Below are positions 20,186 through 40,577 of a stretch of 64,000 bases of DNA, piece after piece. Within the stretch, counting starts at the first letter, position 1; each line of letters opens with the position of its first letter. The stretch is from a phage. The stretch lies in sequence record PX880100.1. One strand, written 5' to 3'. The position numbers and the translations under genes are program-made. The notes below the pieces were generated by a model. It saw only the letters and a list, made by a program, of their open reading frames with translations. It made no database searches and was not told the origin of the DNA.

Positions 20186-20258
20186 ATATTTGTAAGTTGA
20201 TAAACAAGATCTTTTTGTTGATCCTCTGTTAGCGAAGTACACTATAGGAGTGTTATTT

Positions 20259-21011
20259 ATGGGAAAAGCACGTCAAAAAAGAGAGAACCGCAATGGTTCA
20301 AGAAAGCGTGGCAACAAGTATGAGAATAACGTAATTCAGGCTGATTTTTCTAATGATTACGCTAACCCAGTTGCTAAATCCCTAGTAGGTAAAAACCGCG
20401 AGCAAAAATCATATATCAATATGATCAAGAACAACACAGTGACTGTGGGTATTGGTGAGCCAGGTACAGGTAAAACCTTTATTCCGTCTGTTCTTGCAGC
20501 TCAGGAACTTGTAGACATTCACTCAGATATTGAGCAAGTGATCCTCGTACGTCCTAATGAACCTCTAGGTAAGTCTCTTGGTATGCTTCCTGGTGATCTA
20601 GCGGAAAAGCTAGAGCCTTGGTTGGAGCCAATAGCTGATGGTATGAAATGGGCCATCGGCGATCATGCATATAAAGGATATGTCGAACGTCAGAAAATTA
20701 AATTTTTGGCTATCGAACATGCTCGTGGCAGAACTTTCAACAACTCCTATGTAATTGTCGACGAAGCTCAGAATATTTCCGTTGAGGCAATGATTTGTCT
20801 CCTAACTCGTGTAGGGCAAGACTGCCGTTTAATTATCTGCGGAGATATAGCTCAGAAAGACATTAAAGGTGACTCAGGTCTAGCACTCCTTATGGAAGTC
20901 TATGAGAAATACGAAAATGCCCCCTTCTCAATGATCGAATTGATTGATAACGTTCGTTCTGTTGAGTCTAAAGCATTCTATGATATTTTTAAAGACATGG
21001 GGAAGGTGTAA
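20259..21011 (+). CDS. phoH: PhoH-like P-loop ATPase
   Basis: Walker A GIGEPGTGKTF; ATG at 20259 with AGGAG RBS (track ORF starts at in-frame GTG 20250). Confidence 0.8.
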   Translation: MGKARQKRENRNGSRKRGNKYENNVIQADFSNDYANPVAKSLVGKNREQKSYINMIKNNTVTVGIGEPGTGKTFIPSVLAAQELVDIHSDIEQVILVRPNEPLGKSLGMLPGDLAEKLEPWLEPIADGMKWAIGDHAYKGYVERQKIKFLAIEHARGRTFNNSYVIVDEAQNISVEAMICLLTRVGQDCRLIICGDIAQKDIKGDSGLALLMEVYEKYENAPFSMIELIDNVRSVESKAFYDIFKDMGKV

Positions 21012-21012: not shown

Positions 21013-21255
21013 ATGGGAAACGTCGTTCATCTGAGCCGTAAAACTAAAATACATCGTACTTCACTGAGTGCTGCTAATATGATTACACGTAAGGAAGGGG
21101 AAGAAAGTCCTAAGACAACCCTAGCGTGGAAAATTGTAACCTCAAATCCAAATAAACCATTCAATTATAACGAGCTAAGCACCTCTATAGATATTCTATT
21201 AAAAGAAGTAGCTAGAGCTAAAGTAATTGAACAAGCTAAAAAGCTAGACTGGTAA
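21013..21255 (+). CDS. hypothetical protein (80 aa)
   Basis: ATG at 21013 directly after the phoH stop, GGAAGGTG RBS; track lists a longer overlapping frame from 20944. Confidence 0.5.
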   Translation: MGNVVHLSRKTKIHRTSLSAANMITRKEGEESPKTTLAWKIVTSNPNKPFNYNELSTSIDILLKEVARAKVIEQAKKLDW

Positions 21256-21376
21256 TATACAGGGCCTGGGTATGAAAATACTCGGGCCTTTTCTATCAGA
21301 AAATTTTATTTGCCTAATGACCGATAATAAAGTAGAATATTCCTTAAATCCTGATAACTATAAAAAGGAAAGCCAA

Positions 21377-23707
21377 ATGAGCCATCGCATTGAAAAAGTA
21401 ATTAAACGTGACGGTACTGTAGAAGACTTTGCTCCTGAAAAACTCAATGGTTGGGCAGAGTATGGTTGCAAAACAGTTGATGTAAGTTGGTCAGCCATTA
21501 CTATGGCTGCTCAAAAAACTCTACCTAAAGGGGTTGTAGATTCCGATACTCTGATGGACGCATTAATTAAGGCTGCCGAAAGTCTTATCAAAGATAACCC
21601 AGCATATGATGTGCCCGCAAAGGAATTACGTCTTGCGCAAATGCGTAAACGTCTTTATGACTCTTTCGAACCGCCTTCTCTGCGCTTCTTCCACGACCAT
21701 ATGGTTAGCGTAGGTGCATGGGAAGACATGAGTGCATGGATTACCGATGAGCAATTTGAAGCTCTGAATCAGGTTATCGACCATGATCGTGACCGTCTTT
21801 TTACTAGTGGTGGACTGAAGCAGTTCTTTGATAAGTATTCCCGGCGTAACATAGCCACTGGTGAAATTTATGAAACTCCGCAGTTTGCCTACATGGGTAT
21901 GGCAATGGCGATGCTATCTCAACCTAACTGGACAATTCTAGATGCAATCGACCTCTACAACGCAATGTCACTCCACAAAATCAACGTTCCTACGCCGCCA
22001 CTGGTTGGTCTGCGCTCTAGTGACCGTGGATTTGCTAGTTGCTGCCTCGTGGATTCCACTGACACGTTGGATTCAATCGACACCGCCGAGCACATCGTCT
22101 TCAAAATGGTCGCAGCCAGAGCGGGAATCGGGTATCATCTTGAAAGCCGATCAATTGCTGATCCGGTGCGAAATGGGGCATTCCCGCATTCCGGAAAACT
22201 GCCATATTATCGACACATTGACCGCTCAGTAAAGGCTAATACTCAGCAAACTCGTGGTGGTTCTGCTACAGTGTCTTATCCATACTTCGATCCTGAAATC
22301 ATTCAATTGATGCAGGTTAAGCAACAACGTGCTACAGATGAGAATAAAATCGATAAGATGGATTATTCTCTGAGCTTCAACAATCTTTTGTTAAAACGTT
22401 ATCTGAAAAATGAAGATATTACGCTAATGTCATACTTCTATGCTCCAGAAGTTCATGAAGCGTTTTATAGTGATGACGAGGCTAAATTTGAAGAAATCTA
22501 CGTGGCAGCGGAGAAACGTGTGGCATCTCTTACAAAGATCGACCACGAAGGAAAAACAGTTCCAGCAGCTCCTAAAGTCTGTGCAAAAGAAATCCTAGAT
22601 ACTTGGCTACGTATCCGAATGGAAACAGGACGTATGTATGCTCATCACATCGGGGAATCTAATCGTCACGGTAACTTCCTTGATCCGATCCGTATGACAA
22701 ACCTTTGTGTTGAAATTACTCAGCCTACACGCCCGTTCCATCATATCACAGAGCTGTATAAGACAAAAGAGCAGCTTGATCAAATGAAGCCGGAGGATAT
22801 TGGTGAAGTATCTCTGTGTAACTTAGGTGGTGTTGTACTTGGACGCATGGAATCTCTGGCTGAGTGGGAAAAAACTTGCTACATCCTTCTGAAATTCGTT
22901 GATACAATTATTGAAATTCAGGATTATCCATTCCCAACTATGGAATATACGGCTAAGAAACGTCGTAATGTTGGTATTGGCCTGATGAACGCAGCAGGTG
23001 CAATGGCAGCAGAAGGTCTGGCTTATGAAGGTATTGAAGCCCGTAACTGGATTCACCGTGAGGCTGAAAAACTGTCTTACTTTCTGCATAAAGCCTCTGT
23101 ACGCCTAGCTAAAGAACAGGGTGCATGTGAGTGGTTTGATCGTACTAAACCATCTAAAGGAATTCTGGTAATCGACACTTACAAGAAAACTGTTGATGAA
23201 CTGGTATCCGTAGGTCTAGAAATGGATTGGGAGTCTCTGCGTGCAGATATTCTGAAATATGGTATGCGTAACTCTGTTCTGACTGCTCAGATGCCGGGAG
23301 AAAGTTCTTCTGTTCTGTTAGGTGTTACTAACTCTATTGAACCGCCTCGTAAGATTGTATCTATCAAAGGTAGTGCAGTGAATAAAGTAATTGCAATTGC
23401 TCCGGGTGCAACCGATTGGGAAACGTTAATGAGCTATAAACTGGCTTATGATGTAGATCGTATTGAGTGGATCAAATGGGTAGCAACTATGCAGAAATTC
23501 TTCAGTCAGTCTATCAGTACGAATATGTACTATGACTACACCAAGTTTGAGAATGAAATCATTCCTGGCCCAGTAGTAGTTCGTGATTTCATGACTGCTG
23601 TTAAGTATGGTTGGAAGACTTTCTATTACGCAAACTTCAACACCGCTAATGGTGGTGGTGCAGGAGAAGAATCCGCAGGCTGCGCTTCTGGTGGTTGTAC
23701 CATCTAA
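21377..23707 (+). CDS. nrdA: ribonucleoside-diphosphate reductase large subunit (class Ia)
   Basis: ATG at 21377 (MSHRIEKVIKRDG, ATP-cone-like start) with AAGGAAAG RBS; long RNR-alpha-like ORF; track lists an extended N-terminus from 21272. Confidence 0.85.
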   Translation: MSHRIEKVIKRDGTVEDFAPEKLNGWAEYGCKTVDVSWSAITMAAQKTLPKGVVDSDTLMDALIKAAESLIKDNPAYDVPAKELRLAQMRKRLYDSFEPPSLRFFHDHMVSVGAWEDMSAWITDEQFEALNQVIDHDRDRLFTSGGLKQFFDKYSRRNIATGEIYETPQFAYMGMAMAMLSQPNWTILDAIDLYNAMSLHKINVPTPPLVGLRSSDRGFASCCLVDSTDTLDSIDTAEHIVFKMVAARAGIGYHLESRSIADPVRNGAFPHSGKLPYYRHIDRSVKANTQQTRGGSATVSYPYFDPEIIQLMQVKQQRATDENKIDKMDYSLSFNNLLLKRYLKNEDITLMSYFYAPEVHEAFYSDDEAKFEEIYVAAEKRVASLTKIDHEGKTVPAAPKVCAKEILDTWLRIRMETGRMYAHHIGESNRHGNFLDPIRMTNLCVEITQPTRPFHHITELYKTKEQLDQMKPEDIGEVSLCNLGGVVLGRMESLAEWEKTCYILLKFVDTIIEIQDYPFPTMEYTAKKRRNVGIGLMNAAGAMAAEGLAYEGIEARNWIHREAEKLSYFLHKASVRLAKEQGACEWFDRTKPSKGILVIDTYKKTVDELVSVGLEMDWESLRADILKYGMRNSVLTAQMPGESSSVLLGVTNSIEPPRKIVSIKGSAVNKVIAIAPGATDWETLMSYKLAYDVDRIEWIKWVATMQKFFSQSISTNMYYDYTKFENEIIPGPVVVRDFMTAVKYGWKTFYYANFNTANGGGAGEESAGCASGGCTI

Positions 23708-23716
23708 TATTAACAA

Positions 23717-23738
23717 GGGGACGTATGTCCCCTTTATT
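23717..23738 (+). terminator. rho-independent terminator after nrdA
   Basis: GGGGAC-GTAT-GTCCCC hairpin followed by TTTATT; approximate coordinates. Confidence 0.6.
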
Positions 23739-23766
23739 AGGCCTTTTATGGCTGTAATTTTAAATT

Positions 23767-24249
23767 ATGGAAGAAAAATACAAAGAAATAGCGGGGTTAT
23801 TTGATTATAATCCAGAAACAGGGATATTTACCCATAAAGCTAGAGAAGATAAATCCTTCAATACTAGATTTGCTGGCAAAGAGGCTGGTTCTCTAGAAAA
23901 ATGCTCTGGATATATTGTAATGCAAGTAAAAGGCACTAAGTATTACGCGCATATCCTAGCATTCCTTATCGTTAATGGGTATATTCCAAAAGAAGTAGAT
24001 CACGATAATAGAATACGGCATGATAACCGAGCTATTAATTTAAAGGCCTCTGACAGACACAGTAATGGTAAAAATGTCGGGGCGCACAAAGATAATAAAT
24101 TAGGTATTAAAAATATTCACCAAAAAGCTAGTGGATCTTACCAGGTACAGATAGCCCGTAAAGGTGTAAAATATACTAAAACATTCAAAGAACTTGAGGA
24201 TGCTATAGAGTGGCGCGATATGAAACTATTGGAGCTTGATAGTTTATAA
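23767..24249 (+). CDS. HNH homing endonuclease-like protein with AP2-like DNA-binding domain
   Basis: 160 aa; HNH-type region EVDHDNRIRHDNRAINL and AP2-like segment GIKNIHQKASGSYQVQIARKGVKYTKTF; free-standing between nrdA and nrdB. Confidence 0.65.
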   Translation: MEEKYKEIAGLFDYNPETGIFTHKAREDKSFNTRFAGKEAGSLEKCSGYIVMQVKGTKYYAHILAFLIVNGYIPKEVDHDNRIRHDNRAINLKASDRHSNGKNVGAHKDNKLGIKNIHQKASGSYQVQIARKGVKYTKTFKELEDAIEWRDMKLLELDSL

Positions 24250-24255: not shown

Positions 24256-24284
24256 TTGCTAATCGCTACCTGATTTGCTATAAT
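24256..24284 (+). promoter_or_regulatory. early promoter upstream of nrdB
   Basis: TTGCTA, 17-bp spacer, TATAAT; approximate coordinates. Confidence 0.55.
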
Positions 24285-24315
24285 ATTCCTGAAATAGTGA
24301 GAAAGAGGAAAATCA

Positions 24316-25461
24316 ATGACTACTTTACTAAACCTGAATTGGGATCATACTAACGCTGATCTTTTCCTGGGCGATTCTCTAGGTATCGCAGATTATGTAC
24401 GTGTAGCACATCCAGAACTAGAACGTCTGGCACTTCTGCAACGCTCTCAATTTTGGACTGAAACTGAAATCAGTCTGGAAGCAGATAAGAAACAATGGCC
24501 CAATCTCCCACGTGAAATCCAGGAAATCACACTCCTGAACTTAGCATGGCAGACTCAAACAGATTCCTTTATCAGTCGTGCTCCTGAAGCAGCTATTATG
24601 CCGCTTGTAAGCCGTCCAGAATTGGAAGGTATGCTCAAGCAGTGGAGCTATTTTGAAGACCTGCATAGTCGTGCTTATAGTAATATTATTCGTAATGTGC
24701 TGACTGATCCAGCAGAATTTATTGATTCTGTAACCAAAAACCAAGAAGCATTCGCACGTATCGCTGATTCTGTTGAGCTGTTCGATGAACTGTACCAGTT
24801 AGGTCAGTATTTCATCGCGGTACGTGATCATCGTGGTGACAATACATATCCAGAAACTGAGTTCCCTGAAGTTAAGCGTGAAACTCAGGCTAAACTGTTA
24901 GATGCTTATTTTGCAATCTACGGTCTGGAAGCAATGCAGTTCTACGCATCCTTTGCATGTACTTTTGCTCTAGCAGAGAACGATATTCTGCAAGGTATTG
25001 CTAAAAATCTGCAATTAATCGCTAAAGATGAGGCTCTGCACACCCAGATGTCTAAAACAATCATCCAGATTATGTTCCAGCAGTTTGACAAAGATCTGGT
25101 AGATGAAGCAGTGGCTAAAGCACCAGCACAGCTCCTGAAAACTCTAAAAACTGAGATTGAATGGGGTCATTTCATTTTCAAAGGTCGTAGTCTGATTGGT
25201 TTGAATGCAGAACTTCTAGAAGAATACTTGTACTTTGTGGGGCGTAATGCATTTATGCACATTGGTGTAGAATGGCCTAGTCACTTACCAGTAATCACTA
25301 AAAACCCTATTCCGTGGATCATGAACTGGTTGGATACTACTTCTCTACAGCCTGCTCCACAAGAAATCCAGATTGGTGCAGCCTACCGTGTAGGTCAGGT
25401 AACTGAGACCTCTACTGATACTCTGGAAGATCTGGGCAATGAATTTGGAGATTTCCTATGA
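24316..25461 (+). CDS. nrdB: ribonucleoside-diphosphate reductase small subunit
   Basis: 381 aa; position after nrdA, iron-ligand-like EALH segment; 4-nt overlap with the DHFR gene. Confidence 0.8.
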   Translation: MTTLLNLNWDHTNADLFLGDSLGIADYVRVAHPELERLALLQRSQFWTETEISLEADKKQWPNLPREIQEITLLNLAWQTQTDSFISRAPEAAIMPLVSRPELEGMLKQWSYFEDLHSRAYSNIIRNVLTDPAEFIDSVTKNQEAFARIADSVELFDELYQLGQYFIAVRDHRGDNTYPETEFPEVKRETQAKLLDAYFAIYGLEAMQFYASFACTFALAENDILQGIAKNLQLIAKDEALHTQMSKTIIQIMFQQFDKDLVDEAVAKAPAQLLKTLKTEIEWGHFIFKGRSLIGLNAELLEEYLYFVGRNAFMHIGVEWPSHLPVITKNPIPWIMNWLDTTSLQPAPQEIQIGAAYRVGQVTETSTDTLEDLGNEFGDFL

Positions 25462-33838: not shown

Positions 33839-33913
33839 CGGGGTGTAGTCTAAGGGAGAGGCAGGAGTCTTCTAAATTCCTTTATGCAGGTTCGAATCCT
33901 GTCACCTCGGCCA
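33839..33913 (+). tRNA. tRNA-Arg (anticodon UCU)
   Basis: Acceptor CGGGGTG/CACCTCG, D-arm GTCT..AGGC, anticodon arm GGAGT-CTTCTAA-ATTCC, T-arm GCAGG-TTCGAAT-CCTGT, encoded CCA. Confidence 0.7.
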
Positions 33914-33947
33914 ATTTTATTAACTGTAACTAAAACAAAGGAAATAT

Positions 33948-34895
33948 ATGTTTAATACTAAAAATATGAAAGAACTGACTTCTGAGCAGAAAGTAATTCG
34001 TACTATTAAACGTTGGGGGATTGGTGCTGTAGTTGGTTTAGCAGGTTTAGTTCTAGCTCTTAACTCCTATACCGTTGTTCAAGACGGTACTGTTAAGACC
34101 CAGACTTTCTTGGGTAAAGTTGATCCTAATCCAGTATTACCTGGTTTCCATGTTGTAAATCCTTTTGCTTCTTTTGATACTTTTAGTACTAAAGATATTG
34201 CTCTAAAATTAGATAAACTTCAGGTTCCTAGTCAGGATAAGTTTAAATCCACTGTTGACCTGACTGTTATGTTGCAGTTTGATGGTTCTAAAGCACCGAT
34301 TAACCGTATTAATGCAGGTAATCAGGATCAAGCGTTAGACAAATATGTAACTGAAAAATTACTGTCTACTATTCGTGAGTTTGGTAAGTCTGTACCTAAA
34401 GCACAAGATTTATTTGATGCTAAAATTCAGGCTCAATTGCAAACTGCAATTCAACAGGAAGTTGAAGAGTATGCACGCCCATATGGTTACACAGTTAAGC
34501 AGGTGTTCCTTCAGGATATTACTTTGCCACCGGTAATCATGGAACAGGTACAGAATACCAAAGTTCGTGAAGAACAGGTTAATGCTGCTAAAGCTGAATT
34601 AGCTCGTGTTGAACAGGAAGCACAGCAAAAAGTTAAACAAGCAGAAGCAGATCGTGAAGCTCGCAACAACCAAGCTATTGCTAATGAACGTGACGCAGAT
34701 GCTAAACTGTACGCAGCTAAGAAAGAAGCTGAAGCTAACGCCGCATTGCAACGTACCATTACTCCTGAGATGATTCGCTGGAAGCAACTGGAAGTTGAAA
34801 TGATCCGTGCTCAGAAGTATCAAGGTGGTGTACCACAGACGGTAGTTGGTACTGGTTATGATGGCCAAATGATCATGGATATGCGTAATAAATAA
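33948..34895 (+). CDS. SPFH/band-7 (prohibitin/HflC-like) membrane protein
   Basis: 315 aa; N-terminal TM helix (WGIGAVVGLAGLVLALN), central SPFH-like region, C-terminal coiled coil rich in A/E/Q/K/R. Confidence 0.6.
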   Translation: MFNTKNMKELTSEQKVIRTIKRWGIGAVVGLAGLVLALNSYTVVQDGTVKTQTFLGKVDPNPVLPGFHVVNPFASFDTFSTKDIALKLDKLQVPSQDKFKSTVDLTVMLQFDGSKAPINRINAGNQDQALDKYVTEKLLSTIREFGKSVPKAQDLFDAKIQAQLQTAIQQEVEEYARPYGYTVKQVFLQDITLPPVIMEQVQNTKVREEQVNAAKAELARVEQEAQQKVKQAEADREARNNQAIANERDADAKLYAAKKEAEANAALQRTITPEMIRWKQLEVEMIRAQKYQGGVPQTVVGTGYDGQMIMDMRNK

Positions 34896-34919
34896 TACCC
34901 GCATGTAACATCTGAAGTA

Positions 34920-34954
34920 AGCCCTGCGTTTCCTGGAGAGCGCAGGGCTTTTCT
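34920..34954 (+). terminator. rho-independent terminator
   Basis: AGCCCTGCG...CGCAGGGCT hairpin followed by TTTCT; approximate. Confidence 0.6.
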
Positions 34955-34991
34955 ATATAATGTAATTATAAAACTAACTAGGAGATTAAAC

Positions 34992-35510
34992 ATGGGTGTT
35001 GATGAATTAACACAGCATCTTCTATCTAGAGGATTTGATGCAGATAAATATCATTGCTGGTTAAGTCCGGAAGGATGGCTAACAGTCCCGTTGTATGATT
35101 TCTCTGGGATGTTGAGGGGCTATCAAACTTATAATCCTTCTGCTCCAAAAGGTCATGGTAAGTATCCCTTTGAAGCTAAATATTTTACCTATTCTACTAC
35201 CCAGTGTGTATGGGGATTAGAAACTCTCAATGGAGATGAAAAAGTAGTATTGATCGCTGAATCTGTATTTAAGGCAGTTGCGTTACATAACGCTGGTTAT
35301 CCAGCCCTAGCAATGTTGGGTTCTTCTCCAGGAAAAGCGTTATTAAAGCAACTGAAATTATTACCTTTTAAATTGGTAGCTGTCGGGGATAACGATCCTG
35401 CGGGTGAAAAATTTGCTAGAAAATTAAACGGCTTTGTTTCTCCTGTAGATGTGGATGAGATGTCTACCGAAAACTTGAAAAATTTTCTTGCTATGAAGCT
35501 AAATTTCTAA
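34992..35510 (+). CDS. hypothetical protein (172 aa)
   Basis: Track ORF with GGAGA RBS. Confidence 0.5.
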   Translation: MGVDELTQHLLSRGFDADKYHCWLSPEGWLTVPLYDFSGMLRGYQTYNPSAPKGHGKYPFEAKYFTYSTTQCVWGLETLNGDEKVVLIAESVFKAVALHNAGYPALAMLGSSPGKALLKQLKLLPFKLVAVGDNDPAGEKFARKLNGFVSPVDVDEMSTENLKNFLAMKLNF

Positions 35511-35531
35511 TATAATATATCTTATAAATTC

Positions 35532-35620
35532 GGAAGAATAGCATAACGGTATTGCAGCAGATTGCTAATCTGTCGGTTTGAAATATAGCCTTGTGGGTTC
35601 GATTCCCACTTCTTCCGCCA
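35532..35620 (+). tRNA. tRNA-Ser (anticodon GCU), class II
   Basis: Acceptor GGAAGAA/TTCTTCC, 3-bp D-stem, anticodon arm GCAGA-TTGCTAA-TCTGT, long variable arm, T-arm GTGGG-TTCGATT-CCCAC, encoded CCA. Confidence 0.7.
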
Positions 35621-35626
35621 AATTCT

Positions 35627-35704
35627 GGTTCTCAAGCTCATATGGTATGAGCACCCAGCTCATAACTGGAAGGTACGTAGGTTCGAATCCTCGGGGAGCC
35701 ACCA
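35627..35704 (+). tRNA. tRNA with CAU anticodon (Met or Ile2 type)
   Basis: Acceptor GGTTCTC/GGGAGCC with G-U pairs, D-arm GCTC..GAGC, anticodon loop CTCATAA, encoded CCA; T-stem has two mismatches, so fold is uncertain. Confidence 0.5.
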
Positions 35705-35922
35705 ACTTAATTAGGGGATTACAAGTGGAATTATACATAGTTTATGTTGTGTTTATTCAAGATAGAGAATACCCTGATGAATATAAAAAAGGATATAGGT
35801 TAGCCAGAGCTACCTCTGAAGTCCAAGCTATGGATAAAGTGGCAGATTATATGATTACGGTAGAAAACGTACACTATATCGACTACCTTGAGGCCTCAAA
35901 AGTAATTGACTAAGGAGACTAT

Positions 35923-36108
35923 ATGTCCAAGTTTCAAGAACTCAAGCAAGAGCTAGAAGAATGTGCCTGCCCTGAGTGTAGGGGAATTGGTGAAAGTTCT
36001 GATGCAGAAGCAGGAGATACTTTTTGCAATATCTGGGTTTGCCCAAATTGCAATGGTACAGGTATTAATCCTAACTGTGGTATTTCTCTAGATATTGAAA
36101 GAGGGTAA
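35923..36108 (+). CDS. small zinc-ribbon-like protein (61 aa)
   Basis: Track ORF; CxxC...CxxC cysteine pairs (CACPECRG, CPNCNG); AAGGAG RBS. Confidence 0.5.
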   Translation: MSKFQELKQELEECACPECRGIGESSDAEAGDTFCNIWVCPNCNGTGINPNCGISLDIERG

Positions 36109-36209
36109 TATCTGTGAAACTAAAAGATTATTATATTGGTTGGTTTGTGGGACTAGTAGTAGGATTTTCACTAGGCTATAATATGTATCAACTAATAAAC
36201 TGATTACAC

Positions 36210-36286
36210 GGGGGTGTAATCGAATTGGCATAGGTACTGGACTTAAAATTCAGGTTTTGTGGGTTCGAATCCCACCACCCCTACCA
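36210..36286 (+). tRNA. tRNA with UAA anticodon (Leu-type anticodon, short variable arm)
   Basis: Acceptor GGGGGTG/CACCCCT, anticodon arm CTGGA-CTTAAAA-TTCAG, T-arm GTGGG-TTCGAAT-CCCAC, encoded CCA; D-arm not cleanly resolved. Confidence 0.5.
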
Positions 36287-36301
36287 AATTAAGGAAATAA
36301 G

Positions 36302-36469
36302 ATGTATAGACCTCCACCTCCGCCAACACGTCGTTCTAGAGAAGTTATCCTCATGGAATTGACTAAAAACTTCAAGGCAACTCTTGAAGATAGAGATTTA
36401 GGCACGGATGAAGACATTGATTTTATTTGTAGACTATTAAAGATGAAACTGGAGAAACAACATGGCTAA
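36302..36469 (+). CDS. hypothetical small protein (55 aa, below track cutoff)
   Basis: ATG at 36302 with AAGGAAATAAG RBS right after the tRNA; proline-rich N-terminus; overlaps the next ORF start. Confidence 0.5.
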   Translation: MYRPPPPPTRRSREVILMELTKNFKATLEDRDLGTDEDIDFICRLLKMKLEKQHG

Positions 36470-36668
36470 TCCTGAAATTACCGCACAACGTTTCATGCTT
36501 AAAGGCATGATTGCTGAAGCAGGTATGACTCAAGAGGTTGCAGACTTTCATAAGCAAATTCTTGATATTATAACTCTAGCTAAAGAGACTGGAGAAAAAG
36601 AGCACGCAGCAGCAATTATGGCTATATCTCTTATTAGTCTAGACTTGGCTGAAGAATCTGGAGTTTAG
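36462..36668 (+). CDS. hypothetical protein (68 aa)
   Basis: Track ORF. Confidence 0.5.
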   Translation: MANPEITAQRFMLKGMIAEAGMTQEVADFHKQILDIITLAKETGEKEHAAAIMAISLISLDLAEESGV

Positions 36669-36698
36669 CTCCTCCAAATAGAATTTTTAAAAATGTAC

Positions 36699-36728
36699 TT
36701 GCCTTTTGCTTTAAATTTCTGATATAAT
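36699..36728 (+). promoter_or_regulatory. early promoter
   Basis: TTGCCT, 18-bp spacer, TATAAT, then AGTTATATAAATTGATGAAGGAG; approximate. Confidence 0.55.
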
Positions 36729-36758
36729 AGTTATATAAATTGATGAAGGAGTTAACTA

Positions 36759-37034
36759 ATGCAAAATCGTGTTATAGCAACTGGTATTGAAAGTGCAATC
36801 TGTAAATCCTGGGAAGGCTGGGAAGGTGAGATTGAATGGCTTTATTTCTATGATGTAGAACTTCTGCCGGAAGTTAAAGCTAAATGTGTTGAAGCTGGAA
36901 TGGCTCCAGATGCAAAAGCTGATATTGATATTTCAATGTCTGAACTTAAAGGCCGTGTAATTACTGTTAGTGATGAGGGTGAAGAAGTTTTCGAACTTCC
37001 ATTCTCCTTAACTGTCACTCCTAAGTTCGACTAA
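36759..37034 (+). CDS. hypothetical protein (91 aa)
   Basis: Track ORF downstream of promoter. Confidence 0.5.
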   Translation: MQNRVIATGIESAICKSWEGWEGEIEWLYFYDVELLPEVKAKCVEAGMAPDAKADIDISMSELKGRVITVSDEGEEVFELPFSLTVTPKFD

Positions 37035-37070
37035 CTAATACAGCACTGAGCAAGTTCTTTAAAATTTGAC

Positions 37071-37099
37071 TTGCTCAGTGCCTTAAAACTTGGTATAAT
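37071..37099 (+). promoter_or_regulatory. early promoter feeding a tRNA block
   Basis: TTGCTC, 17-bp spacer, TATAAT; followed by a 14-bp inverted-repeat leader hairpin and tRNAs; approximate. Confidence 0.5.
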
Positions 37100-37161
37100 A
37101 GTTATCTAATTTGGAAACATATTTAAAAGTGTTTAAACTAGTATTTGAATACTTTTAAATA

Positions 37162-37267
37162 TGTTGGATTAGTATCGTAGAGGTAGCGAAGCAGACTGTA
37201 AATCTGCCGACTCGGAAGGGTCTCGGGTGGTTCGACTCCATCATCCATCATCCATCATCCAACACCA
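37162..37267 (+). tRNA. tRNA-Tyr-like (anticodon GUA), class II, atypically long; boundaries uncertain
   Basis: Perfect anticodon arm GCAGA-CTGTAAA-TCTGC, D-stem TCG/CGA, T-arm GGTGG-TTCGACT-CCATC; 3' region carries ATCCATC-ATCCATC-ATCCAAC then ACCA; GTTGGAT pairs with the last copy. Confidence 0.5.
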
Positions 37268-37274
37268 AATTTAA

Positions 37275-37351
37275 GTCCTGTTAGACAAACTGGTAAAGTC
37301 ACTACCCTTTCAAGGTAGGATTTGCGGGTTCGATCCCCGCACAGGACGCCA
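37275..37351 (+). tRNA. tRNA-Glu (anticodon UUC)
   Basis: Acceptor GTCCTGT/ACAGGAC, anticodon arm CTACC-CTTTCAA-GGTAG, T-arm GCGGG-TTCGATC-CCCGC, encoded CCA. Confidence 0.8.
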
Positions 37352-37360
37352 ATTTCTGCA

Positions 37361-37436
37361 TTCCTAGAGTGTTACTGGACAGCATGTCGGTCTCCAAAAT
37401 CGTACGGTCTAGGTTCGAGTCCTAGTAGGTTTGCCA
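37361..37436 (+). tRNA. tRNA-Trp-like (anticodon CCA), acceptor pairing unresolved
   Basis: Anticodon arm TCGGT-CTCCAAA-ATCGT and T-arm CTAGG-TTCGAGT-CCTAG with encoded CCA; spacing to neighbouring tRNAs fits, but 5' acceptor strand could not be paired by eye. Confidence 0.4.
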
Positions 37437-37442
37437 AAATTT

Positions 37443-37517
37443 GCACCTTTAGCTGAGATGGATTAGCGCTTGCCTGAAGAGCTTGAGAGGTTCGTTCGAT
37501 ACGAACAGGGTGCACCA
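37443..37517 (+). tRNA. tRNA-Phe-like (anticodon GAA)
   Basis: Acceptor GCACCTT/AGGGTGC, D-arm GCTG..TAGC, T-arm GTTCG-TTCGATA-CGAAC, encoded CCA; anticodon loop CTGAAGA but stem has two U-U mismatches. Confidence 0.55.
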
Positions 37518-37519
37518 AA

Positions 37520-37807
37520 TTGAGGGGGCTGCTGATGCATCCTGAAAACTTCTTTATTTACTGCGCTGATAAGTCGCTGAAACGTAGAATTAACAAAGTC
37601 TATCATTATCGTGCTAGTCAACAGCCTTATGTATATGCTTTTGACGGTGATCACATTCCATTAGAACAATTATCTTGTGATTACATGATATTGAAGAACT
37701 TTGACGAGACAAAGATCTCAAGCGTTCATAATCGACAGAATCCCTTAACGTGGAAATATAAGAAGAAAAAGAAAGGCATCAAATTCTTAAAAAATGTAGT
37801 TGCTTAG
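37520..37807 (+). CDS. hypothetical protein (95 aa)
   Basis: Track ORF starting 3 nt after the tRNA; TTG start. Confidence 0.45.
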   Translation: MRGLLMHPENFFIYCADKSLKRRINKVYHYRASQQPYVYAFDGDHIPLEQLSCDYMILKNFDETKISSVHNRQNPLTWKYKKKKKGIKFLKNVVA

Positions 37808-37828
37808 TTTCCAAAAGTTCTGTATAAT
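37800..37828 (+). promoter_or_regulatory. PN25-type early promoter
   Basis: TTGCTT, 17-bp spacer, TATAAT, then AATTACATAAATTGAACTGGAG; approximate. Confidence 0.55.
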
Positions 37829-37857
37829 AATTACATAAATTGAACTGGAGAAGCAAC

Positions 37858-38082
37858 ATGACAGAACAAGAATTGAATGAACGTAAGCTGGTAATGCTCC
37901 GCTTACTAAACATTTTCTCTGGTATGGATGGGGGTATTGACTTTGTTCATCTACGTTCTTTTGTAGAAGAAGCAGAAGGTGAATCTATCACTAAAATCCT
38001 TAAACATATGGGTTTACTATTAGATGCTGCTGGTGTAGCAACGGAATATAACCTCGAAGATCTACCGGAGCGTATTAAATGA
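37858..38082 (+). CDS. hypothetical protein (75 aa)
   Basis: ATG at 37858 with GGAG RBS; track lists an extended frame from 37840. Confidence 0.5.
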   Translation: MTEQELNERKLVMLRLLNIFSGMDGGIDFVHLRSFVEEAEGESITKILKHMGLLLDAAGVATEYNLEDLPERIK

Positions 38083-38267
38083 AGAAGCCAAAAGCTAAAT
38101 TAGTTAAGTTCGACTGTTGTGACACAGAAATCTTATTCACTAAGTTTGGTGAATTTAAGATGTGTGAATGTGGAACATGTGGTTATGATCATGGTGATGG
38201 ATATTATTGCAGGACTCTTGGACCAGCAAATCTAATCCACTTTTCATGGCCGGAAGATAAAGAATAA
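38079..38267 (+). CDS. small zinc-ribbon-like protein (62 aa)
   Basis: Track ORF; cysteine clusters FDCCDTE and CECGTCGYDHGDGYYC; 4-nt overlap with upstream gene. Confidence 0.5.
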   Translation: MKKPKAKLVKFDCCDTEILFTKFGEFKMCECGTCGYDHGDGYYCRTLGPANLIHFSWPEDKE

Positions 38268-38269
38268 TT

Positions 38270-38344
38270 GCATCCTTGTCCGAGTGGCTTAGGTGACGGT
38301 CTGCAAAATCGTCTAGGTTGGTTCAATTCCAGCAGGGTGCTCCA
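38270..38344 (+). tRNA. tRNA-Cys (anticodon GCA)
   Basis: Acceptor GCATCCT/AGGGTGC, anticodon arm ACGGT-CTGCAAA-ATCGT, T-arm GTTGG-TTCAATT-CCAGC, encoded CCA. Confidence 0.7.
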
Positions 38345-38350
38345 AATTCA

Positions 38351-38433
38351 GGGTCGTTAGCCAAGCGGTTTGGCGGTGGACTGTTAATCCATGTCGAAAG
38401 ACAACGTAGGTTCGAATCCTACACGGCCCGCCA
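38351..38433 (+). tRNA. tRNA-Asn (anticodon GUU) with an enlarged (~13-nt) variable region
   Basis: Acceptor GGGTCGT/ACGGCCC, D-arm GCCA..TGGC, anticodon arm GTGGA-CTGTTAA-TCCAT, T-arm GTAGG-TTCGAAT-CCTAC, encoded CCA. Confidence 0.65.
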
Positions 38434-38535
38434 AATTCTGTGTAGAGTTAAGTAAACCGGTAGCCAACCAGCTATCATTGCTGACATCGAATTCAGCCAC
38501 AGATACCATTTTCATTAATAACTGAGGAAACAAGC

Positions 38536-38721
38536 ATGTCCAAGAATGTAATTGCGCAGCTAGAAGTTCATCGTGATAGCACTATCAACAATATTGAAGT
38601 TGAGAAGAAATACATCGAAGAACTTAAACATGATATACTAGTAAGTCTCAACCGTCTTAATGTACGAAAAGAGTTTCTTAAAGAACTTAATGCAGCTATT
38701 GAAAAACTCAAAGCTGAGTAA
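38536..38721 (+). CDS. hypothetical protein (61 aa)
   Basis: Track ORF with GAGGAAAC RBS. Confidence 0.5.
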   Translation: MSKNVIAQLEVHRDSTINNIEVEKKYIEELKHDILVSLNRLNVRKEFLKELNAAIEKLKAE

Positions 38722-38730
38722 ATGAATTAT

Positions 38731-38807
38731 GCGACCGGGGCTGGCTTGGTAATGGTACTCCCCTGTCACGGGAGGGAATGTGGGTTCAAATCCCATCGGT
38801 CGCGCCA
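38731..38807 (+). tRNA. tRNA-Asp (anticodon GUC)
   Basis: Acceptor GCGACCG/CGGTCGC, anticodon arm CTCCC-CTGTCAC-GGGAG, T-arm GTGGG-TTCAAAT-CCCAT, encoded CCA. Confidence 0.8.
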
Positions 38808-38824
38808 AATAAGGTAGGTTAGCT

Positions 38825-38983
38825 ATGGAACGTAGAGAGTTTACTCCAGAAGAGATAGAGCAGATAAAAGAATCTGCTACGAAAAATGCTAGAATATCTC
38901 TGTCACTAGAAGGTATCATTATTAGTGATGTAAACTTTGAAAAAATCAAAGCCATAGCTGATGAACTGGAAAAAGTAATTTAA
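38825..38983 (+). CDS. hypothetical small protein (52 aa, below track cutoff)
   Basis: ATG at 38825 with AAGGTAGG RBS between two tRNAs; acidic helical peptide. Confidence 0.45.
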   Translation: MERREFTPEEIEQIKESATKNARISLSLEGIIISDVNFEKIKAIADELEKVI

Positions 38984-38984
38984 T

Positions 38985-39060
38985 ACATCCATAGCTCAAT
39001 GGTTAGAGCTACCGCCTCTTAAGCGGAGGGTTCTAGGTTCAAGTCCTAGTGGGTGTACCA
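38985..39060 (+). tRNA. tRNA-Lys (anticodon CUU)
   Basis: Acceptor ACATCCA/TGGGTGT, D-arm GCTC..GAGC, anticodon arm CCGC-CTCTTAA-GCGG, T-arm CTAGG-TTCAAGT-CCTAG, encoded CCA. Confidence 0.65.
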
Positions 39061-39086
39061 AACTAAACTAGCACGAGAAATATACT

Positions 39087-39434
39087 ATGCGTAATGCTAA
39101 AGAAGAGTTGTTACTTGCCTTAAAAAATACTAATTCTGAAGTTAAGTGTATTAAAATAGAATTCGGGTATTATGGGGACAAAAAAGTTTGGGTATTACCT
39201 CTGGGGTATACAGAAGAAGATATTGGGGATTTTCTTAATAACCTAGACTTTGAGTATGATTCTGGTTATGGTGGACAACTACTTTATGGTAATGTATGGT
39301 TTGCCGATGGAACCTGGCTAGAACGTGGGGAATATGATGGAGCTGAGTGGTGGGAATACAAGGCTACTCCAGCAATTCCAGAGGAATGCCGAACAATTAA
39401 TGGTGAAGTAGATAATACTTTAAGGTTAAACTAA
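39087..39434 (+). CDS. hypothetical protein (115 aa)
   Basis: Track ORF. Confidence 0.5.
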   Translation: MRNAKEELLLALKNTNSEVKCIKIEFGYYGDKKVWVLPLGYTEEDIGDFLNNLDFEYDSGYGGQLLYGNVWFADGTWLERGEYDGAEWWEYKATPAIPEECRTINGEVDNTLRLN

Positions 39435-39438
39435 TAAA

Positions 39439-39538
39439 ATTTCAGTGCAGAACACGGAGCTAGCAATTCGGAAGTGCTGACTCATGATAAGCTGCCTATG
39501 TACTTGCAAAGCGGTCGTGTCCAAGACTCGGACTCTTG
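39439..39538 (+). ncRNA. structured ORF-free element closed by a ~10-bp long-range stem
   Basis: TTCAGTGCAG at the 5' end pairs with CTTGCACTGAA at the 3' end, enclosing internal hairpins (GTCC-AAGACTC-GGAC); no ORF. Confidence 0.35.
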
Positions 39539-39556
39539 CACTGAAAACAATCAAAC

Positions 39557-39684
39557 ATTCTAGCGTGGTTGATGGGGAAACCAGCTTGGCTAGGGCAGAA
39601 GCTCGTTCGATTCGAGTGAAAGAATGGTTCTCGTAAGTCCGCACAAGTGATAATAGGTTCGAGTCCTGTCTAGAATGACACTAT
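39557..39684 (+). ncRNA. tRNA-like element of atypical length (~128 nt)
   Basis: ATTCTAG...CTAGAAT acceptor-like pairing, D-arm-like GGTT-GATGGGGA-AACC, two T-arm-like motifs; too long for a canonical tRNA. Confidence 0.3.
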
Positions 39685-39826
39685 AAAGTTTACTTATTAT
39701 GTAGGTTCCGATAGATCGGCGGGTCTATTCTGGCATTTAAGAGAGGTCTCGCAAACTTCTTTGTCAGCCGTGGGGTTGGTAGCCTCCAGGTGGCCTACAC
39801 AATAAGTAAATTTATTAAAAATTCAT

Positions 39827-39855
39827 TTGCTATTTCTCTTAATTATCTGTATAAT
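39827..39855 (+). promoter_or_regulatory. PN25-type early promoter
   Basis: TTGCTA, 17-bp spacer, TATAAT, then ATATTTTATAAAGTGAAGAGAAGG; approximate. Confidence 0.55.
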
Positions 39856-39887
39856 ATATTTTATAAAGTGAAGAGAAGGAAAGCAAA

Positions 39888-40046
39888 ATGAAACACAAGA
39901 TAGCTCAAGTTTTTATGGCATTATGGTGTATGCCAATAGCTATAACAGCATTTAATCTAGATACTTTTACTATAGAAGAAAAATGTATCGGATTAGTTAG
40001 TGGCTTTAGTATGCTTGGCTTATCTTTGTTGTGGTTGAAGAAATAA
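39888..40046 (+). CDS. hypothetical small membrane peptide (52 aa, below track cutoff)
   Basis: ATG at 39888 with GAAGGAAAG RBS after the promoter; hydrophobic sequence; stops 4 nt before tRNA-Pro. Confidence 0.5.
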   Translation: MKHKIAQVFMALWCMPIAITAFNLDTFTIEEKCIGLVSGFSMLGLSLLWLKK

Positions 40047-40050
40047 TATT

Positions 40051-40128
40051 CTCCGTGTAGCTCAGTTTGGCCAGAGCGTTTCGTTTGGGGCGATAGGGTC
40101 GGGGGTTCAAATCCTCCCACGGAGACCA
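40051..40128 (+). tRNA. tRNA-Pro (anticodon UGG)
   Basis: Acceptor CTCCGTG/CACGGAG, D-arm GCTC..GAGC, anticodon loop TTTGGGG (stem with one U-U), T-arm GGGGG-TTCAAAT-CCTCC, encoded CCA. Confidence 0.7.
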
Positions 40129-40134
40129 AACAAT

Positions 40135-40212
40135 TGCGGGTTAGATCTCTGGTAGAGATCGCTAGTCTCATAAGCTAGAAAGAGGTAGGTTCGATTCCTG
40201 CACCCGCTTCCA
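40135..40212 (+). tRNA. tRNA with CAU anticodon (Met-type; T-T mismatch at pair 1-72)
   Basis: Acceptor TGCGGGT/ACCCGCT, D-arm GATC..GATC, anticodon arm CTAGT-CTCATAA-GCTAG, T-arm GTAGG-TTCGATT-CCTGC, encoded CCA. Confidence 0.6.
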
Positions 40213-40232
40213 TTTTAATAGAGGATTTCGAA

Positions 40233-40400
40233 ATGAAAGTATTTCGATTAGTAGTAAGTGACAAACGCTTAGGTAAGAATACATCAAAATCCTTACTTGC
40301 TCATTATGGTAGAAATTGGGATGAAGTAATGGCAGAGTTTAGTACTAATCACTCTTACTTGAAAGTTCACTCTATTAAAGAAGTATACAATGGTTACTAA
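40233..40400 (+). CDS. hypothetical small protein (55 aa, below track cutoff)
   Basis: ATG at 40233 with GAGGA RBS between tRNAs. Confidence 0.45.
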   Translation: MKVFRLVVSDKRLGKNTSKSLLAHYGRNWDEVMAEFSTNHSYLKVHSIKEVYNGY

Positions 40401-40401
40401 T

Positions 40402-40480: not shown

Positions 40481-40484
40481 ATTT

Positions 40485-40558: not shown

Positions 40559-40577
40559 ATTAACTCAAAATAAGGAA

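What the first reader, a model, noticed from the sequence alone, without database searches (positions are those of the whole stretch)
23767..24249. Free-standing HNH/AP2-type homing endonuclease between nrdA and nrdB
A 160-aa ORF with an HNH-like core (VDHDNRIRHDNR) and an AP2-like DNA-binding segment sits in the 60-bp-flanked gap between the two class Ia RNR subunit genes, a classic homing-endonuclease insertion site in phage nucleotide-metabolism operons. Both flanking genes appear intact, so it is free-standing, not intron- or intein-borne.
Basis: partly seen in the sequence, partly recalled or inferred. Interest (0 to 1): 0.4.

Follow-up and report, generated by a model that had tools for sequence, protein, structure and literature searches.

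The report
Homing endonuclease gene between nrdA and nrdB
A small selfish "homing endonuclease" gene of a well-known type sits between the two ribonucleotide-reductase genes of this T5-like phage; about half of related phages have the same spot empty, and it is already annotated as such in public genomes, so it is real but ordinary.

Summary

Of about 447 T5-like records, 251 have an empty 106-bp spacer (terminator, nrdB promoter, RBS). Forty-four carry this gene and 4 a chimeric variant. At least 112 carry unrelated paralogous HNH genes inserted about 70 bp further downstream in the same spacer.

Here a 526-nt segment replaces 24 nt of the empty allele. The cassette is AT-rich (35% vs 43% GC). 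It is far more diverged than its flanks (dS about 1.0 against about 97% flank identity) yet under strong purifying selection (dN/dS 0.05).

Verdict: a free-standing HNH-AP2 homing endonuclease gene, functionally analogous to T4 mobE but from a different HNH family. An identical protein is already annotated, so novelty and interest are low. Cleavage activity and the target site remain untested.

The parts
21272..23707 (+). nrdA, ribonucleotide reductase large subunit (811 aa), intact. Upstream flank of the cassette.
   Evidence: Pfam Ribonuc_red_lgC E 1e-118 and lgN. TIGR02506 scores 598 bits, above its cut-off.
23640..23707 (+). Variant 3' tail of nrdA, encoding the C-terminal Cys-x4-Cys tail ...GAGEESAGCASGGCTI*. 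It is co-inherited with this sub-type of the endonuclease gene and is probably a co-converted flank.
   Evidence: Only about 80% identical to all other T5-like loci, while the preceding 800 nt are 93-99% identical. The 127-nt tail plus leader is above 95% identical only in FGS017 and Kenya-K44, the next best match being 78.5%. Exactly two records also carry a >=99%-identical endonuclease; FGS017 is one and the other was not listed.
23715..23734 (+). Cassette-specific hairpin AAGGGGAC-GTAT-GTCCCCTT followed by a weak U-tract (TATTAGG). It replaces the canonical terminator of the empty allele and is probably a leaky terminator that limits read-through into the endonuclease gene.
   Evidence: RNA fold gives an 8-bp stem. 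The scan does not call a + strand terminator here but does call one in the empty allele: AAGGAGATCTTCGGGTCTCCTT followed by TTTCTTTGAA. The terminator function is inferred.
23722..24247 (+). Segment present here and absent from empty-site alleles. These 526 nt replace 24 nt (TCTTCGGGTCTCCTTTTTCTTTGA) of the 106-bp empty spacer.
   Evidence: Junction alignments of 35 unique loci. The right boundary is identical in all A-type alleles (stop codon TAA followed by TTTTACTTGCTAATCGC). The left boundary is approximate, within 23708-23725.
23767..24249 (+). Free-standing HNH-AP2 homing endonuclease gene (160 aa plus stop). No Shine-Dalgarno sequence and no sigma-70 promoter lie in the 59-nt leader.
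   Evidence: dN/dS is 0.05 against orthologues. GC is 35.2% against 42-43% in the flanks.
23767..23940 (+). N-terminal beta-rich domain (residues 1-58), the equivalent of the I-HmuI N-terminal DNA-binding sheet. This is the part swapped in the chimeric A2 alleles.
23941..24075 (+). HNH (His-Me finger, beta-beta-alpha-metal) nuclease core, residues 59-103, with catalytic D78, H79, N91, N100 and N103.
   Evidence: Pfam HNH_3 covers residues 59-100. These columns are invariant in the family alignment. The family profile aligns to I-HmuI residues 33-104, with DH and N96 aligned.
24109..24246 (+). C-terminal AP2-like DNA-binding domain (residues 115-160): a three-stranded sheet plus one helix.
24256..24284 (+). 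nrdB promoter (TTGCTA, 17 nt, TATAAT, with TG upstream). It is shared unchanged with empty alleles, and the cassette lies immediately upstream of it.
   Evidence: Promoter scans of the window and of the empty allele. The same element is annotated as a promoter in T5 AY543070. It is conserved in about 440 records.
24304..24309 (+). nrdB ribosome-binding site (AGAGGA), unchanged relative to empty alleles.
   Evidence: Read directly from the sequence and the junction alignment.
24316..25461 (+). nrdB, ribonucleotide reductase small subunit (381 aa), intact. Its first 200 nt are the same 'wild-type' sequence as in empty-site phages.
   Evidence: Pfam Ribonuc_red_sm. The first 200 nt are 93-100% identical to empty alleles against 72-89% to B-type alleles.

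Best explanation
This is a free-standing homing endonuclease gene (HEG) of the I-HmuI-type HNH_3 family, with an AP2-like C-terminal DNA-binding domain, lodged in the nrdA-nrdB spacer of a T5-like phage.

Shown:
- The protein has the fold and catalytic residues of an HNH nuclease, flanked by two DNA-binding modules.
- The gene is a discrete, AT-rich 526-nt cassette that replaces 24 nt of a spacer which is empty in most relatives.
- The cassette has a different evolutionary history from its flanks and is under strong purifying selection.

Inferred mechanism:
- The gene has no promoter or Shine-Dalgarno sequence of its own. It is probably expressed at a low level by read-through from nrdA across a weakened hairpin.
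- During co-infection with a T5-like phage that has the empty spacer, the elongated protein binds a long asymmetric site near the insertion point.
- That site most likely lies on the nrdA-tail/terminator side. This is the only flank that differs between carriers and non-carriers, and it is partly destroyed by the insertion itself.
- The HNH site (H79 as general base; D78 and N100 as metal ligands) nicks or cuts the site.
- Recombination-dependent repair then copies the cassette and the adjacent nrdA tail from the carrier genome.
- The carrier would be immune because its own site is altered.
For: Protein evidence:
- Pfam HNH_3 scores above its cut-off and PHROG_99 matches at E 4e-49.
- D78, H79, N91, N100 and N103 are invariant across 47 homologues.
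- The family profile hits I-HmuI 1u3e (E 1.7e-6) and AP2/ERF structures (down to E 5.8e-10) on adjacent, non-overlapping parts of the protein.

Population evidence:
- 251 records have the empty junction.
- 44 carry this gene at >=90% aa identity and 4 at 60-80%.
- The boundaries are precise and shared across carriers.

Discordant history of cassette and flanks:
- The HEG is 84% nt-identical between the window and FFH_1, while the flanking nrdA and nrdB are 97-98% identical.
- dS is about 1.0 and dN/dS 0.05.
- GC is 35% against 43% in the flanks.
- The nrdA tail and hairpin variant matches at >95% only FGS017 and Kenya-K44; likewise just two records carry the HEG at >=99%.

Signs of a homing-gene life cycle in relatives: an in-frame stop in H8, a tandem partial duplication in SB6, and a domain-swapped chimera in S124 and H8.

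Expression design: it parallels the experimentally studied T4 mobE, which is promoterless, terminator-limited and sits between nrdA and nrdB (PMC2790892). No promoter was found in front of the ORF.
Against: - No nuclease activity, target site or biased inheritance has been measured for this protein or any close relative. The biochemically characterised T5 enzymes F-TflI, II and IV are not significantly similar.
- The target could not be located by association, because the nrdA tail is hypervariable in all allele classes.
- The missing SD sequence and promoter could mean the gene is barely expressed.
- The same distribution could arise from ancient presence with repeated loss, plus ordinary recombination between phages.
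Confidence: 0.78

Rival explanations
1. The gene is a stranded or domesticated endonuclease. It descends from a homing endonuclease but no longer homes. It is kept because the protein serves the phage, for example by cutting competing co-infecting phages without copying itself, or by binding DNA through its AP2 domain as a regulator of the nrd operon.
For: Very low dN/dS (0.05) despite deep divergence (dS about 1) shows selection on the protein itself. It sits right at the terminator/promoter junction of an essential operon. The Barth et al. text notes that HEG DNA-binding domains have been co-opted as regulators.
Against: The gene is absent from about 90% of close relatives, which have an intact, conserved spacer, so it is dispensable. 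All catalytic residues are retained. The cassette-versus-flank discordance and the linked flank tract are the signature of gene conversion. Purifying selection is also expected for an actively cycling HEG.
Confidence: 0.14
2. The pattern is ancestral presence with many independent deletions. The gene was in the common ancestor of T5-like phages and has simply been lost repeatedly. The polymorphism would then reflect decay and general phage mosaicism, not endonuclease-driven spread.
For: Carriers occur in both Tequintavirus and Epseptimavirus and in Yersinia phage phiR2-01. One empty allele (L024) carries a carrier-like GCTGCT insertion in the nrdA tail, which could be a footprint of loss.
Against: All 251 empty alleles share one near-identical 106-bp spacer with a different, canonical terminator, and independent deletions would not regenerate it. 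Five other paralogous HEG lineages occupy the same spacer in another register. The cassette is much more diverged than its flanks.
Confidence: 0.05
3. The gene is a housekeeping HNH nuclease of the phage, for example a packaging-associated HNH like HK97 gp74, or the enzyme that makes the site-specific nicks of T5 DNA.
For: HNH proteins have such roles in other phages (abstracts listed). T5 DNA carries specific single-strand interruptions (annotation).
Against: Most T5-like phages lack the gene, so it cannot supply a conserved function of the group. It is not next to terminase genes but inside the nucleotide-metabolism operon. It belongs to the HNH_3/I-HmuI homing group with an AP2 domain, not the zinc-ribbon packaging HNH group.
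Confidence: 0.02

Closest known systems
Orthologues already annotated in T5-like phages (Salmonella phage vB_Si_CECAV_FGS017 XHH62893.1 'HNH endonuclease'; Kenya-K44, SP01, NBEco001 'homing endonuclease'; EPS7 'H-N-H endonuclease F-TflVI'; FFH_1; Yersinia phiR2-01)
   Same: Same gene at the same position between nrdA and nrdB. The protein is 100% identical in FGS017 and 91-92% identical in the EPS7/FFH_1/SP01 group.
   Different: There is essentially no difference. The window/FGS017/Kenya-K44 sub-type has its own hairpin and nrdA-tail variant and is only 84% nt-identical to the commoner sub-type. None of these orthologues has been studied experimentally, as far as the searched literature shows.
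T4 MobE (free-standing HNH endonuclease between nrdA and nrdB of phage T4; Wilson & Edgell 2009, PMC2790892)
   Same: Same genomic niche between the two aerobic RNR subunit genes. Both are free-standing and lack their own promoter, with a hairpin or terminator limiting expression and the nrdB promoter downstream. Both are presence/absence polymorphic among relatives.
   Different: MobE belongs to a different branch of the His-Me superfamily: it is listed with PF01844-type HNH group 1, whereas this protein is HNH_3 group 2. MobE has no AP2 domain, and the phage family is unrelated. MobE nicks nrdB codon 42. In this phage the nrdB 5' region is the same as in empty alleles, so that site is unlikely to be this enzyme's target. 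The resemblance is an analogy, not family membership.
I-HmuI (intron-encoded HNH nicking endonuclease of Bacillus phage SPO1; PDB 1u3e)
   Same: Best structural and profile match. It shares the N-terminal beta-sheet DNA-binding domain plus the HNH core, with D74/H75/N96 equivalent to D78/H79/N100.
   Different: I-HmuI is encoded inside a group I intron and ends in helical/HTH modules, whereas this gene is free-standing and ends in an AP2-like domain.
T5 hegH (P-TflVIII) and the other HNH genes in the same spacer (phiLLS, AKFV33, IrmaTschudi types)
   Same: Same protein family and architecture (HNH_3, about 165-175 aa), same orientation, and the same 106-bp nrdA-nrdB spacer. The literature already notes these genes and compares them with mobE (PMC3326045).
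   Different: They are only 36-49% identical to the window protein. They are inserted about 70 bp further downstream, after the -10 box, where they replace the nrdB RBS and their stop codon overlaps the nrdB ATG. They are linked to a substitution cluster in the first ~130 nt of nrdB that this phage lacks.
HNH-AP2 homing endonucleases (Magnani et al. 2004; 'IPA-HNH' HEGs of Barth et al. 2023, PMC10448857)
   Same: An N-terminal HNH domain with a C-terminal AP2 domain. They are found in phages and are frequently located next to ribonucleotide reductase genes.
   Different: The ICP1 'IPA-HNH' proteins are too divergent to hit Pfam HNH_3, whereas this protein does hit it. The relationship to that subgroup was not tested here.

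Membership tests
HNH_3 / I-HmuI-type His-Me finger endonucleases (Pfam PF13392) | Match to the family HMM above the curated cut-off | tested here: met
   35.9 bits against a cut-off of 24.8, E 5.6e-9, residues 59-100. All 47 aligned homologues also match.
HNH_3 / I-HmuI-type His-Me finger endonucleases (Pfam PF13392) | Catalytic residues: Asp-His general-base pair, structural Asn, and metal-binding Asn 21 residues after the His | tested here: met
   D78, H79, N91, N100 and N103 are invariant in 47 sequences. The profile alignment places them on I-HmuI D74, H75, N87 and N96. The catalytic roles of the I-HmuI residues are taken from my recollection of Shen et al. 2004.
HNH_3 / I-HmuI-type His-Me finger endonucleases (Pfam PF13392) | Beta-beta-alpha-metal fold with an adjoining N-terminal beta-sheet domain | tested here: met
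HNH_3 / I-HmuI-type His-Me finger endonucleases (Pfam PF13392) | Site-specific nicking or cleavage of DNA | not testable with these tools
   Requires biochemistry.
AP2 DNA-binding domain (Pfam PF00847) | Direct match of this protein to the Pfam AP2 HMM | tested here: not met
   No AP2 hit even at E <= 1.
AP2 DNA-binding domain (Pfam PF00847) | Homology at profile level, and a three-stranded sheet plus helix fold | tested here: met
Free-standing homing endonuclease gene (operational definition) | Not inside an intron or intein; neighbouring genes intact | tested here: met
   nrdA and nrdB are full-length with complete domain matches. The ORF is bounded by 59- and 66-nt non-coding gaps.
Free-standing homing endonuclease gene (operational definition) | Presence/absence polymorphism at one site, with conserved flanks and a defined empty allele | tested here: met
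   251 empty-site records, 44+4 carriers, and identical boundaries.
Free-standing homing endonuclease gene (operational definition) | History of the element discordant with that of its flanks, or a linked co-conversion tract | tested here: met
   The cassette is 84% nt-identical where the flanks are 97-98% identical. dS is about 1.0. The nrdA tail/hairpin variant matches at >95% in just two records (FGS017, Kenya-K44), and two records hold the HEG at >=99% identity.
Free-standing homing endonuclease gene (operational definition) | Endonuclease-dependent biased inheritance into the empty allele | not testable with these tools
   Requires phage crosses.
T4 MobE family | Sequence homology to MobE (classical HNH, PF01844-type, His-Me group 1) | tested here: not met
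   The only Pfam hit is HNH_3. The His-Me classification lists MobA-E in group 1 and HNH_3/I-HmuI in group 2. No direct MobE comparison was run.
T4 MobE family | Location between nrdA and nrdB, promoterless, with a terminator-limited transcript | tested here: inconclusive
   The position criterion is met. No promoter was found and a hairpin is present, but transcription was not measured.
T5 F-TflVI (hegF), the name given to the EPS7 orthologue | Orthology: high identity and the same locus | tested here: not met
   41% aa identity. T5 hegF lies between T5.045 and T5.047, about 26 kb away from nrdA-nrdB.

The most novel reading that the evidence does not exclude
The 106-bp nrdA-nrdB spacer of T5-like phages may be a contested landing pad. 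At least six paralogous HNH-AP2 endonuclease lineages, inserted in two registers (upstream or downstream of the nrdB promoter), behave there as mutually exclusive alleles. On this reading, the upstream type (this gene) targets the nrdA C-terminal-tail/terminator side. The downstream types target nrdB codons ~37-43, next to the radical-transfer tryptophan. That is the same spot nicked by the unrelated T4 MobE, which would be convergent targeting by a different HNH family. Phages such as SP01 would be double-resistant recombinants.
Probability: 0.3. Interest if true: 0.45.

Novelty: already known. Interest (0 to 1): 0.2.

Why it matters
As a single gene it matters little. It is one more selfish endonuclease in a phage group already known to be rich in them, and an identical protein is already deposited and annotated. 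The locus as a whole has modest value as a compact natural system: an empty allele, two insertion registers, six lineages, a chimera, a pseudogene and a duplication. Such a system could be used to study how homing endonucleases compete for one site and drive local mosaicism in therapeutic-candidate T5-like phages. The enzyme would also be a new long-site nicking or cutting specificity if it were characterised.

Tried and rejected
- Direct Pfam AP2 detection on the protein failed. NCBIfam gave only a spurious sub-threshold GldH hit. Pairwise BLASTP to I-HmuI was not significant. Profile and fold methods were needed.
- I looked for a sigma-70 promoter or an SD sequence in front of the ORF and found none. 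The hairpin is not called as a + strand terminator by the scan.
- I tried to locate the target or immunity site by associating flank polymorphisms with the presence of the gene. The result was inconclusive, because the last ~100 nt of nrdA vary in all allele classes. Only one SNP (GCA versus GCT Ala) and a 6-nt insertion track the A1 group, and an empty allele (L024) shares them.
- I searched the window for paralogues with a family HMM and found none besides this ORF.
- The IMG/VR scan with the protein returned only four loci, all copies of GenBank phages.
- I considered the packaging-HNH and T5-nickase roles and rejected them on distribution and family grounds.
- I considered that the EPS7 name 'F-TflVI' implied orthology to a T5 enzyme and rejected that.
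- Two tool calls failed on input format and two literature calls failed on term length.

Full report
**1. What is there**

The window is part of a T5-like phage genome (Demerecviridae, Markadamsvirinae). Its nrdA-nrdB region is 97.1% identical to Salmonella phage vB_Si_CECAV_FGS017. It matches 529 phage records, mostly Salmonella and Escherichia T5-like phages.

The local gene order is phoH (20250-21011), nrdA (21272-23707), the ORF in question (23767-24249), nrdB (24316-25461), a DHFR-like gene and thyA. A 24-gene tRNA cluster lies further downstream.

An in-frame TAA 6 nt upstream of the ATG fixes the start.

**2. The protein**

- Family assignment. Pfam assigns residues 59-100 to HNH_3 (35.9 bits, cut-off 24.8). 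PHROGs assigns the whole protein to phrog_99 'HNH endonuclease' (E 4e-49).
- Homologues. A first homology search found only 8 proteins. A profile search found more than 6,000, many carrying Pfam HNH_3 plus AP2.
- Conserved residues. In an alignment with 46 single-module homologues, D78, H79, N91, L92, N100 and N103 are invariant.
- Matches to solved structures. The profile of that alignment hits I-HmuI (1u3e, E 1.7e-6) over profile positions 46-112, with DH and the metal-binding Asn in register. It also hits plant AP2/ERF domains (WRI1 5.8e-10, TEM1, ERF096, AtERF1) over positions 114-168.
- Direct AP2 test. 29 of the 47 aligned proteins hit Pfam AP2 individually, but the window protein does not.

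The architecture is therefore: an N-terminal beta domain (1-58), the HNH core (59-103), a lower-confidence linker (104-114), and an AP2-like domain (115-160). This is the known HNH-AP2 homing-endonuclease design (His-Me finger group 2).

**3. The site in relatives**

I aligned the junction in the window and 35 non-redundant related loci.

The empty allele is a 106-107-bp spacer. It consists of the nrdA stop, a canonical terminator (AAGGAGATCTTCGGGTCTCCTT followed by TTTCTTTG), the nrdB promoter (TTGCTA, 17 nt, TATAAT) and the RBS.

In the window, 526 nt (about 23722-24247) replace 24 nt of that spacer. The cassette carries its own, different hairpin with a weak U-tract. It ends exactly where the promoter's -35 region begins (stop codon TAA followed by TTTTACTTGCTA).

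Two kinds of occupant exist.

- 'A-type' cassettes sit upstream of the promoter. They include the window sub-type, the commoner EPS7/FFH_1/SP01 sub-type (91-92% aa identity), and a chimeric H8/S124 type (73-78% aa identity).
- 'B-type' cassettes are inserted after the -10 box. They replace the nrdB RBS, and their stop codon overlaps the nrdB start. They include T5 hegH (P-TflVIII), and the phiLLS, AKFV33-like and IrmaTschudi types, which are 36-49% aa-identical to the window protein.

All of these are HNH_3 paralogues. A 40%-identical homologue is also found between nrdA and nrdB in the more distant Klebsiella phage Spivey.

Counts in the phage collection (about 447 T5-like records, with GenBank/RefSeq duplicates included):

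| Allele | Records |
|---|---|
| Empty spacer | 251 |
| A1 (this gene, >=90% aa) | 44 |
| A2 (chimera, 60-80% aa) | 4 |
| B1 (T5 hegH type) | 75 |
| B2 (phiLLS type) | 3 |
| B4 (IrmaTschudi type) | 34 |
| B3 (AKFV33-like) | not counted |

The exact window sub-type (>=99% aa identity) occurs in only two records.

**4. Signs of mobility**

- Discordant divergence. Between the window and FFH_1, the endonuclease gene is 84% nt-identical and the last 100 nt of nrdA are 80% identical. The rest of nrdA is 96.8% identical and nrdB 97-98% identical.
- Selection. For the gene itself dS is about 1.0 and dN/dS 0.05, so the protein is under strong selection but has a much deeper history than its surroundings.
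- Composition. Its GC content is 35.2%, against 42-43% for the flanks.
- Linked flank. The window's nrdA tail plus hairpin is found at more than 95% identity only in FGS017 and Kenya-K44. The next best match is 78.5%. The >=99% HEG class likewise holds two records (FGS017 and one not listed).
- Life-cycle variants in relatives. These include a pseudogene in H8 (in-frame stop), a tandem partial duplication in SB6, and a chimera in which the N-terminal DNA-binding domain has been exchanged while the HNH-AP2 part stays 91-97% nt-identical.

Together these findings meet the operational criteria for a free-standing homing endonuclease gene, except for the experimental ones.

**5. Likely mechanism**

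Shown: the architecture, the catalytic residues, the cassette boundaries, the polymorphism and the discordant history.

Inferred:
- Expression is by read-through from nrdA, because no promoter or SD sequence precedes the ORF and the hairpin lacks a good U-tract. This is the design demonstrated for T4 mobE.
- The enzyme nicks or cuts an empty-site genome during co-infection.
- Repair then copies the cassette and the adjacent nrdA tail.

The target is probably on the upstream side (nrdA 3' end or terminator). The downstream flank (promoter and nrdB 5' region) is identical in carriers and empty alleles, so it could not confer self-immunity. The upstream side, in contrast, is altered or interrupted. 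I could not narrow this further, because the nrdA tail is hypervariable in all allele classes.

**6. Comparison with what is known**

- The identical protein is already deposited and annotated as an HNH endonuclease (FGS017). Orthologues are annotated as homing endonucleases in dozens of genomes.
- The presence of an HNH endonuclease between nrdA and nrdB of T5-like phages, and the analogy with T4 mobE, are already in the literature for the B-type genes (PMC3326045).
- Homing endonucleases are recognised as the main source of differences among T5-like genomes (PMC10644984).
- MobE is an analogue, not a relative, because it belongs to a different HNH group.
- The name 'F-TflVI' used for the EPS7 orthologue is not orthology.
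- The characterised T5 enzymes F-TflI, II and IV are not detectably similar.
- I found no experimental work on this lineage in the searched library.

**7. Verdict**

The finding is a real but ordinary and already annotated element. What this analysis adds is the anatomy of the site (two insertion registers, at least six lineages, allele frequencies) and the linkage evidence. Interest is low (0.2). The most novel reading not excluded concerns the locus as a whole: competing endonuclease lineages, and possible convergence of the B-type target with the MobE site in nrdB.

Noticed in passing
L002 (T5), L004, L005, L006, L007, L022, L023, L025, L026, L028, L030: first ~130 nt of nrdB. The window equivalent is 24316-24445, which does NOT carry the tract.: Every B-type endonuclease allele is linked to its own dense, mostly synonymous substitution cluster in nrdB nt ~6-130. 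It is strongest at nt 110-127 (codons 37-43), just upstream of the conserved QFWTETE motif. This is the same region where T4 MobE nicks T2 nrdB (PMC2790892), which suggests a convergent target.
   Followed up: partly
L035 / L037 (Salmonella phage SP01), nrdA-nrdB junction: SP01 carries the A-type endonuclease gene and an intact nrdB promoter and RBS. However, its first ~200 nt of nrdB show the T5 hegH-linked (B1) pattern without the B1 gene. It looks like a recombinant that may resist both endonuclease types.
   Followed up: partly
L009 (Salmonella phage SB6) 2796-3576: A tandem partial duplication of the A-type cassette: a truncated 108-aa copy ending inside the HNH motif, followed by a second hairpin-less leader and a full 160-aa copy.
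   Followed up: partly
L031 / L040 (Escherichia phage H8) and L036 / L039 (Salmonella phage S124): The A2 allele is a chimera. The first ~73 residues (N-terminal DNA-binding domain) are divergent from the window protein (5' half 65-67% nt-identical), while the HNH-AP2 part is 91-97% nt-identical. It also has its own hairpin and a TATAAT directly before the ATG. The H8 copy has an in-frame stop around codon 137, which is either a pseudogene or a sequencing error.
   Followed up: partly
L008 (Salmonella phage Kenya-K36) 295-3756; L007 (Shigella phage SHSML-45) 405-3647: nrdA is 1153 aa and 1080 aa in these phages, against 811 aa here. The Kenya-K36 insertion contains a LAGLIDADG_3 domain inside the barrel domain (an intein with its own endonuclease). 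SHSML-45 has a different insertion that splits the barrel match. The RNR locus therefore hosts inteins as well as free-standing endonuclease genes.
   Followed up: partly
L024 (IMGVR_UViG_2974606035), nrdA tail and spacer: This locus has an empty 112-bp spacer with the canonical terminator. However, its nrdA tail carries the GCA Ala codon and a GCTGCT-type insertion otherwise seen only in A1 carriers. It is either a footprint of cassette loss or the ancestral flank of the A1 cassette.
   Followed up: no
L042 (Klebsiella phage Spivey, Sugarlandvirus) 3501-3980: A 40%-identical homologue lies between nrdA and nrdB and abuts nrdB. It is annotated only as a 75-aa CDS, although tblastn aligns residues 6-157, so it may be a disrupted or mis-called gene. 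The hot spot extends beyond Tequintavirus and Epseptimavirus.
   Followed up: no
listing of 40 A-type records: No listed A-type record also carries a B-type gene (its span would be >=4.7 kb), although the two insertion positions are about 70 bp apart and physically compatible. With B-types in about a quarter of records, roughly 10 co-occurrences would be expected if the two were independent, ignoring phylogeny.
   Followed up: partly
Database records MG065692 'Campylobacter phage C13' and OR847452 'Listeria phage LM 4-11-1': Records named for Campylobacter and Listeria phages match this Enterobacteria T5-like DNA at 95-97% identity. They are probably mislabelled or contaminated entries.
   Followed up: no
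window 33839-43887: A cluster of 24 tRNA genes, all on the + strand, typical of the T5 early region. No further member of this HNH-AP2 family is encoded anywhere in the 64-kb window.
   Followed up: partly
window 21027-21255 region; L001 242-463, L003 211-465: The small ORF between phoH and nrdA is annotated as 'tail length tape measure protein' in several relatives. This is implausible for a ~70-85-aa early-region ORF and is probably propagated mis-annotation.
   Followed up: no
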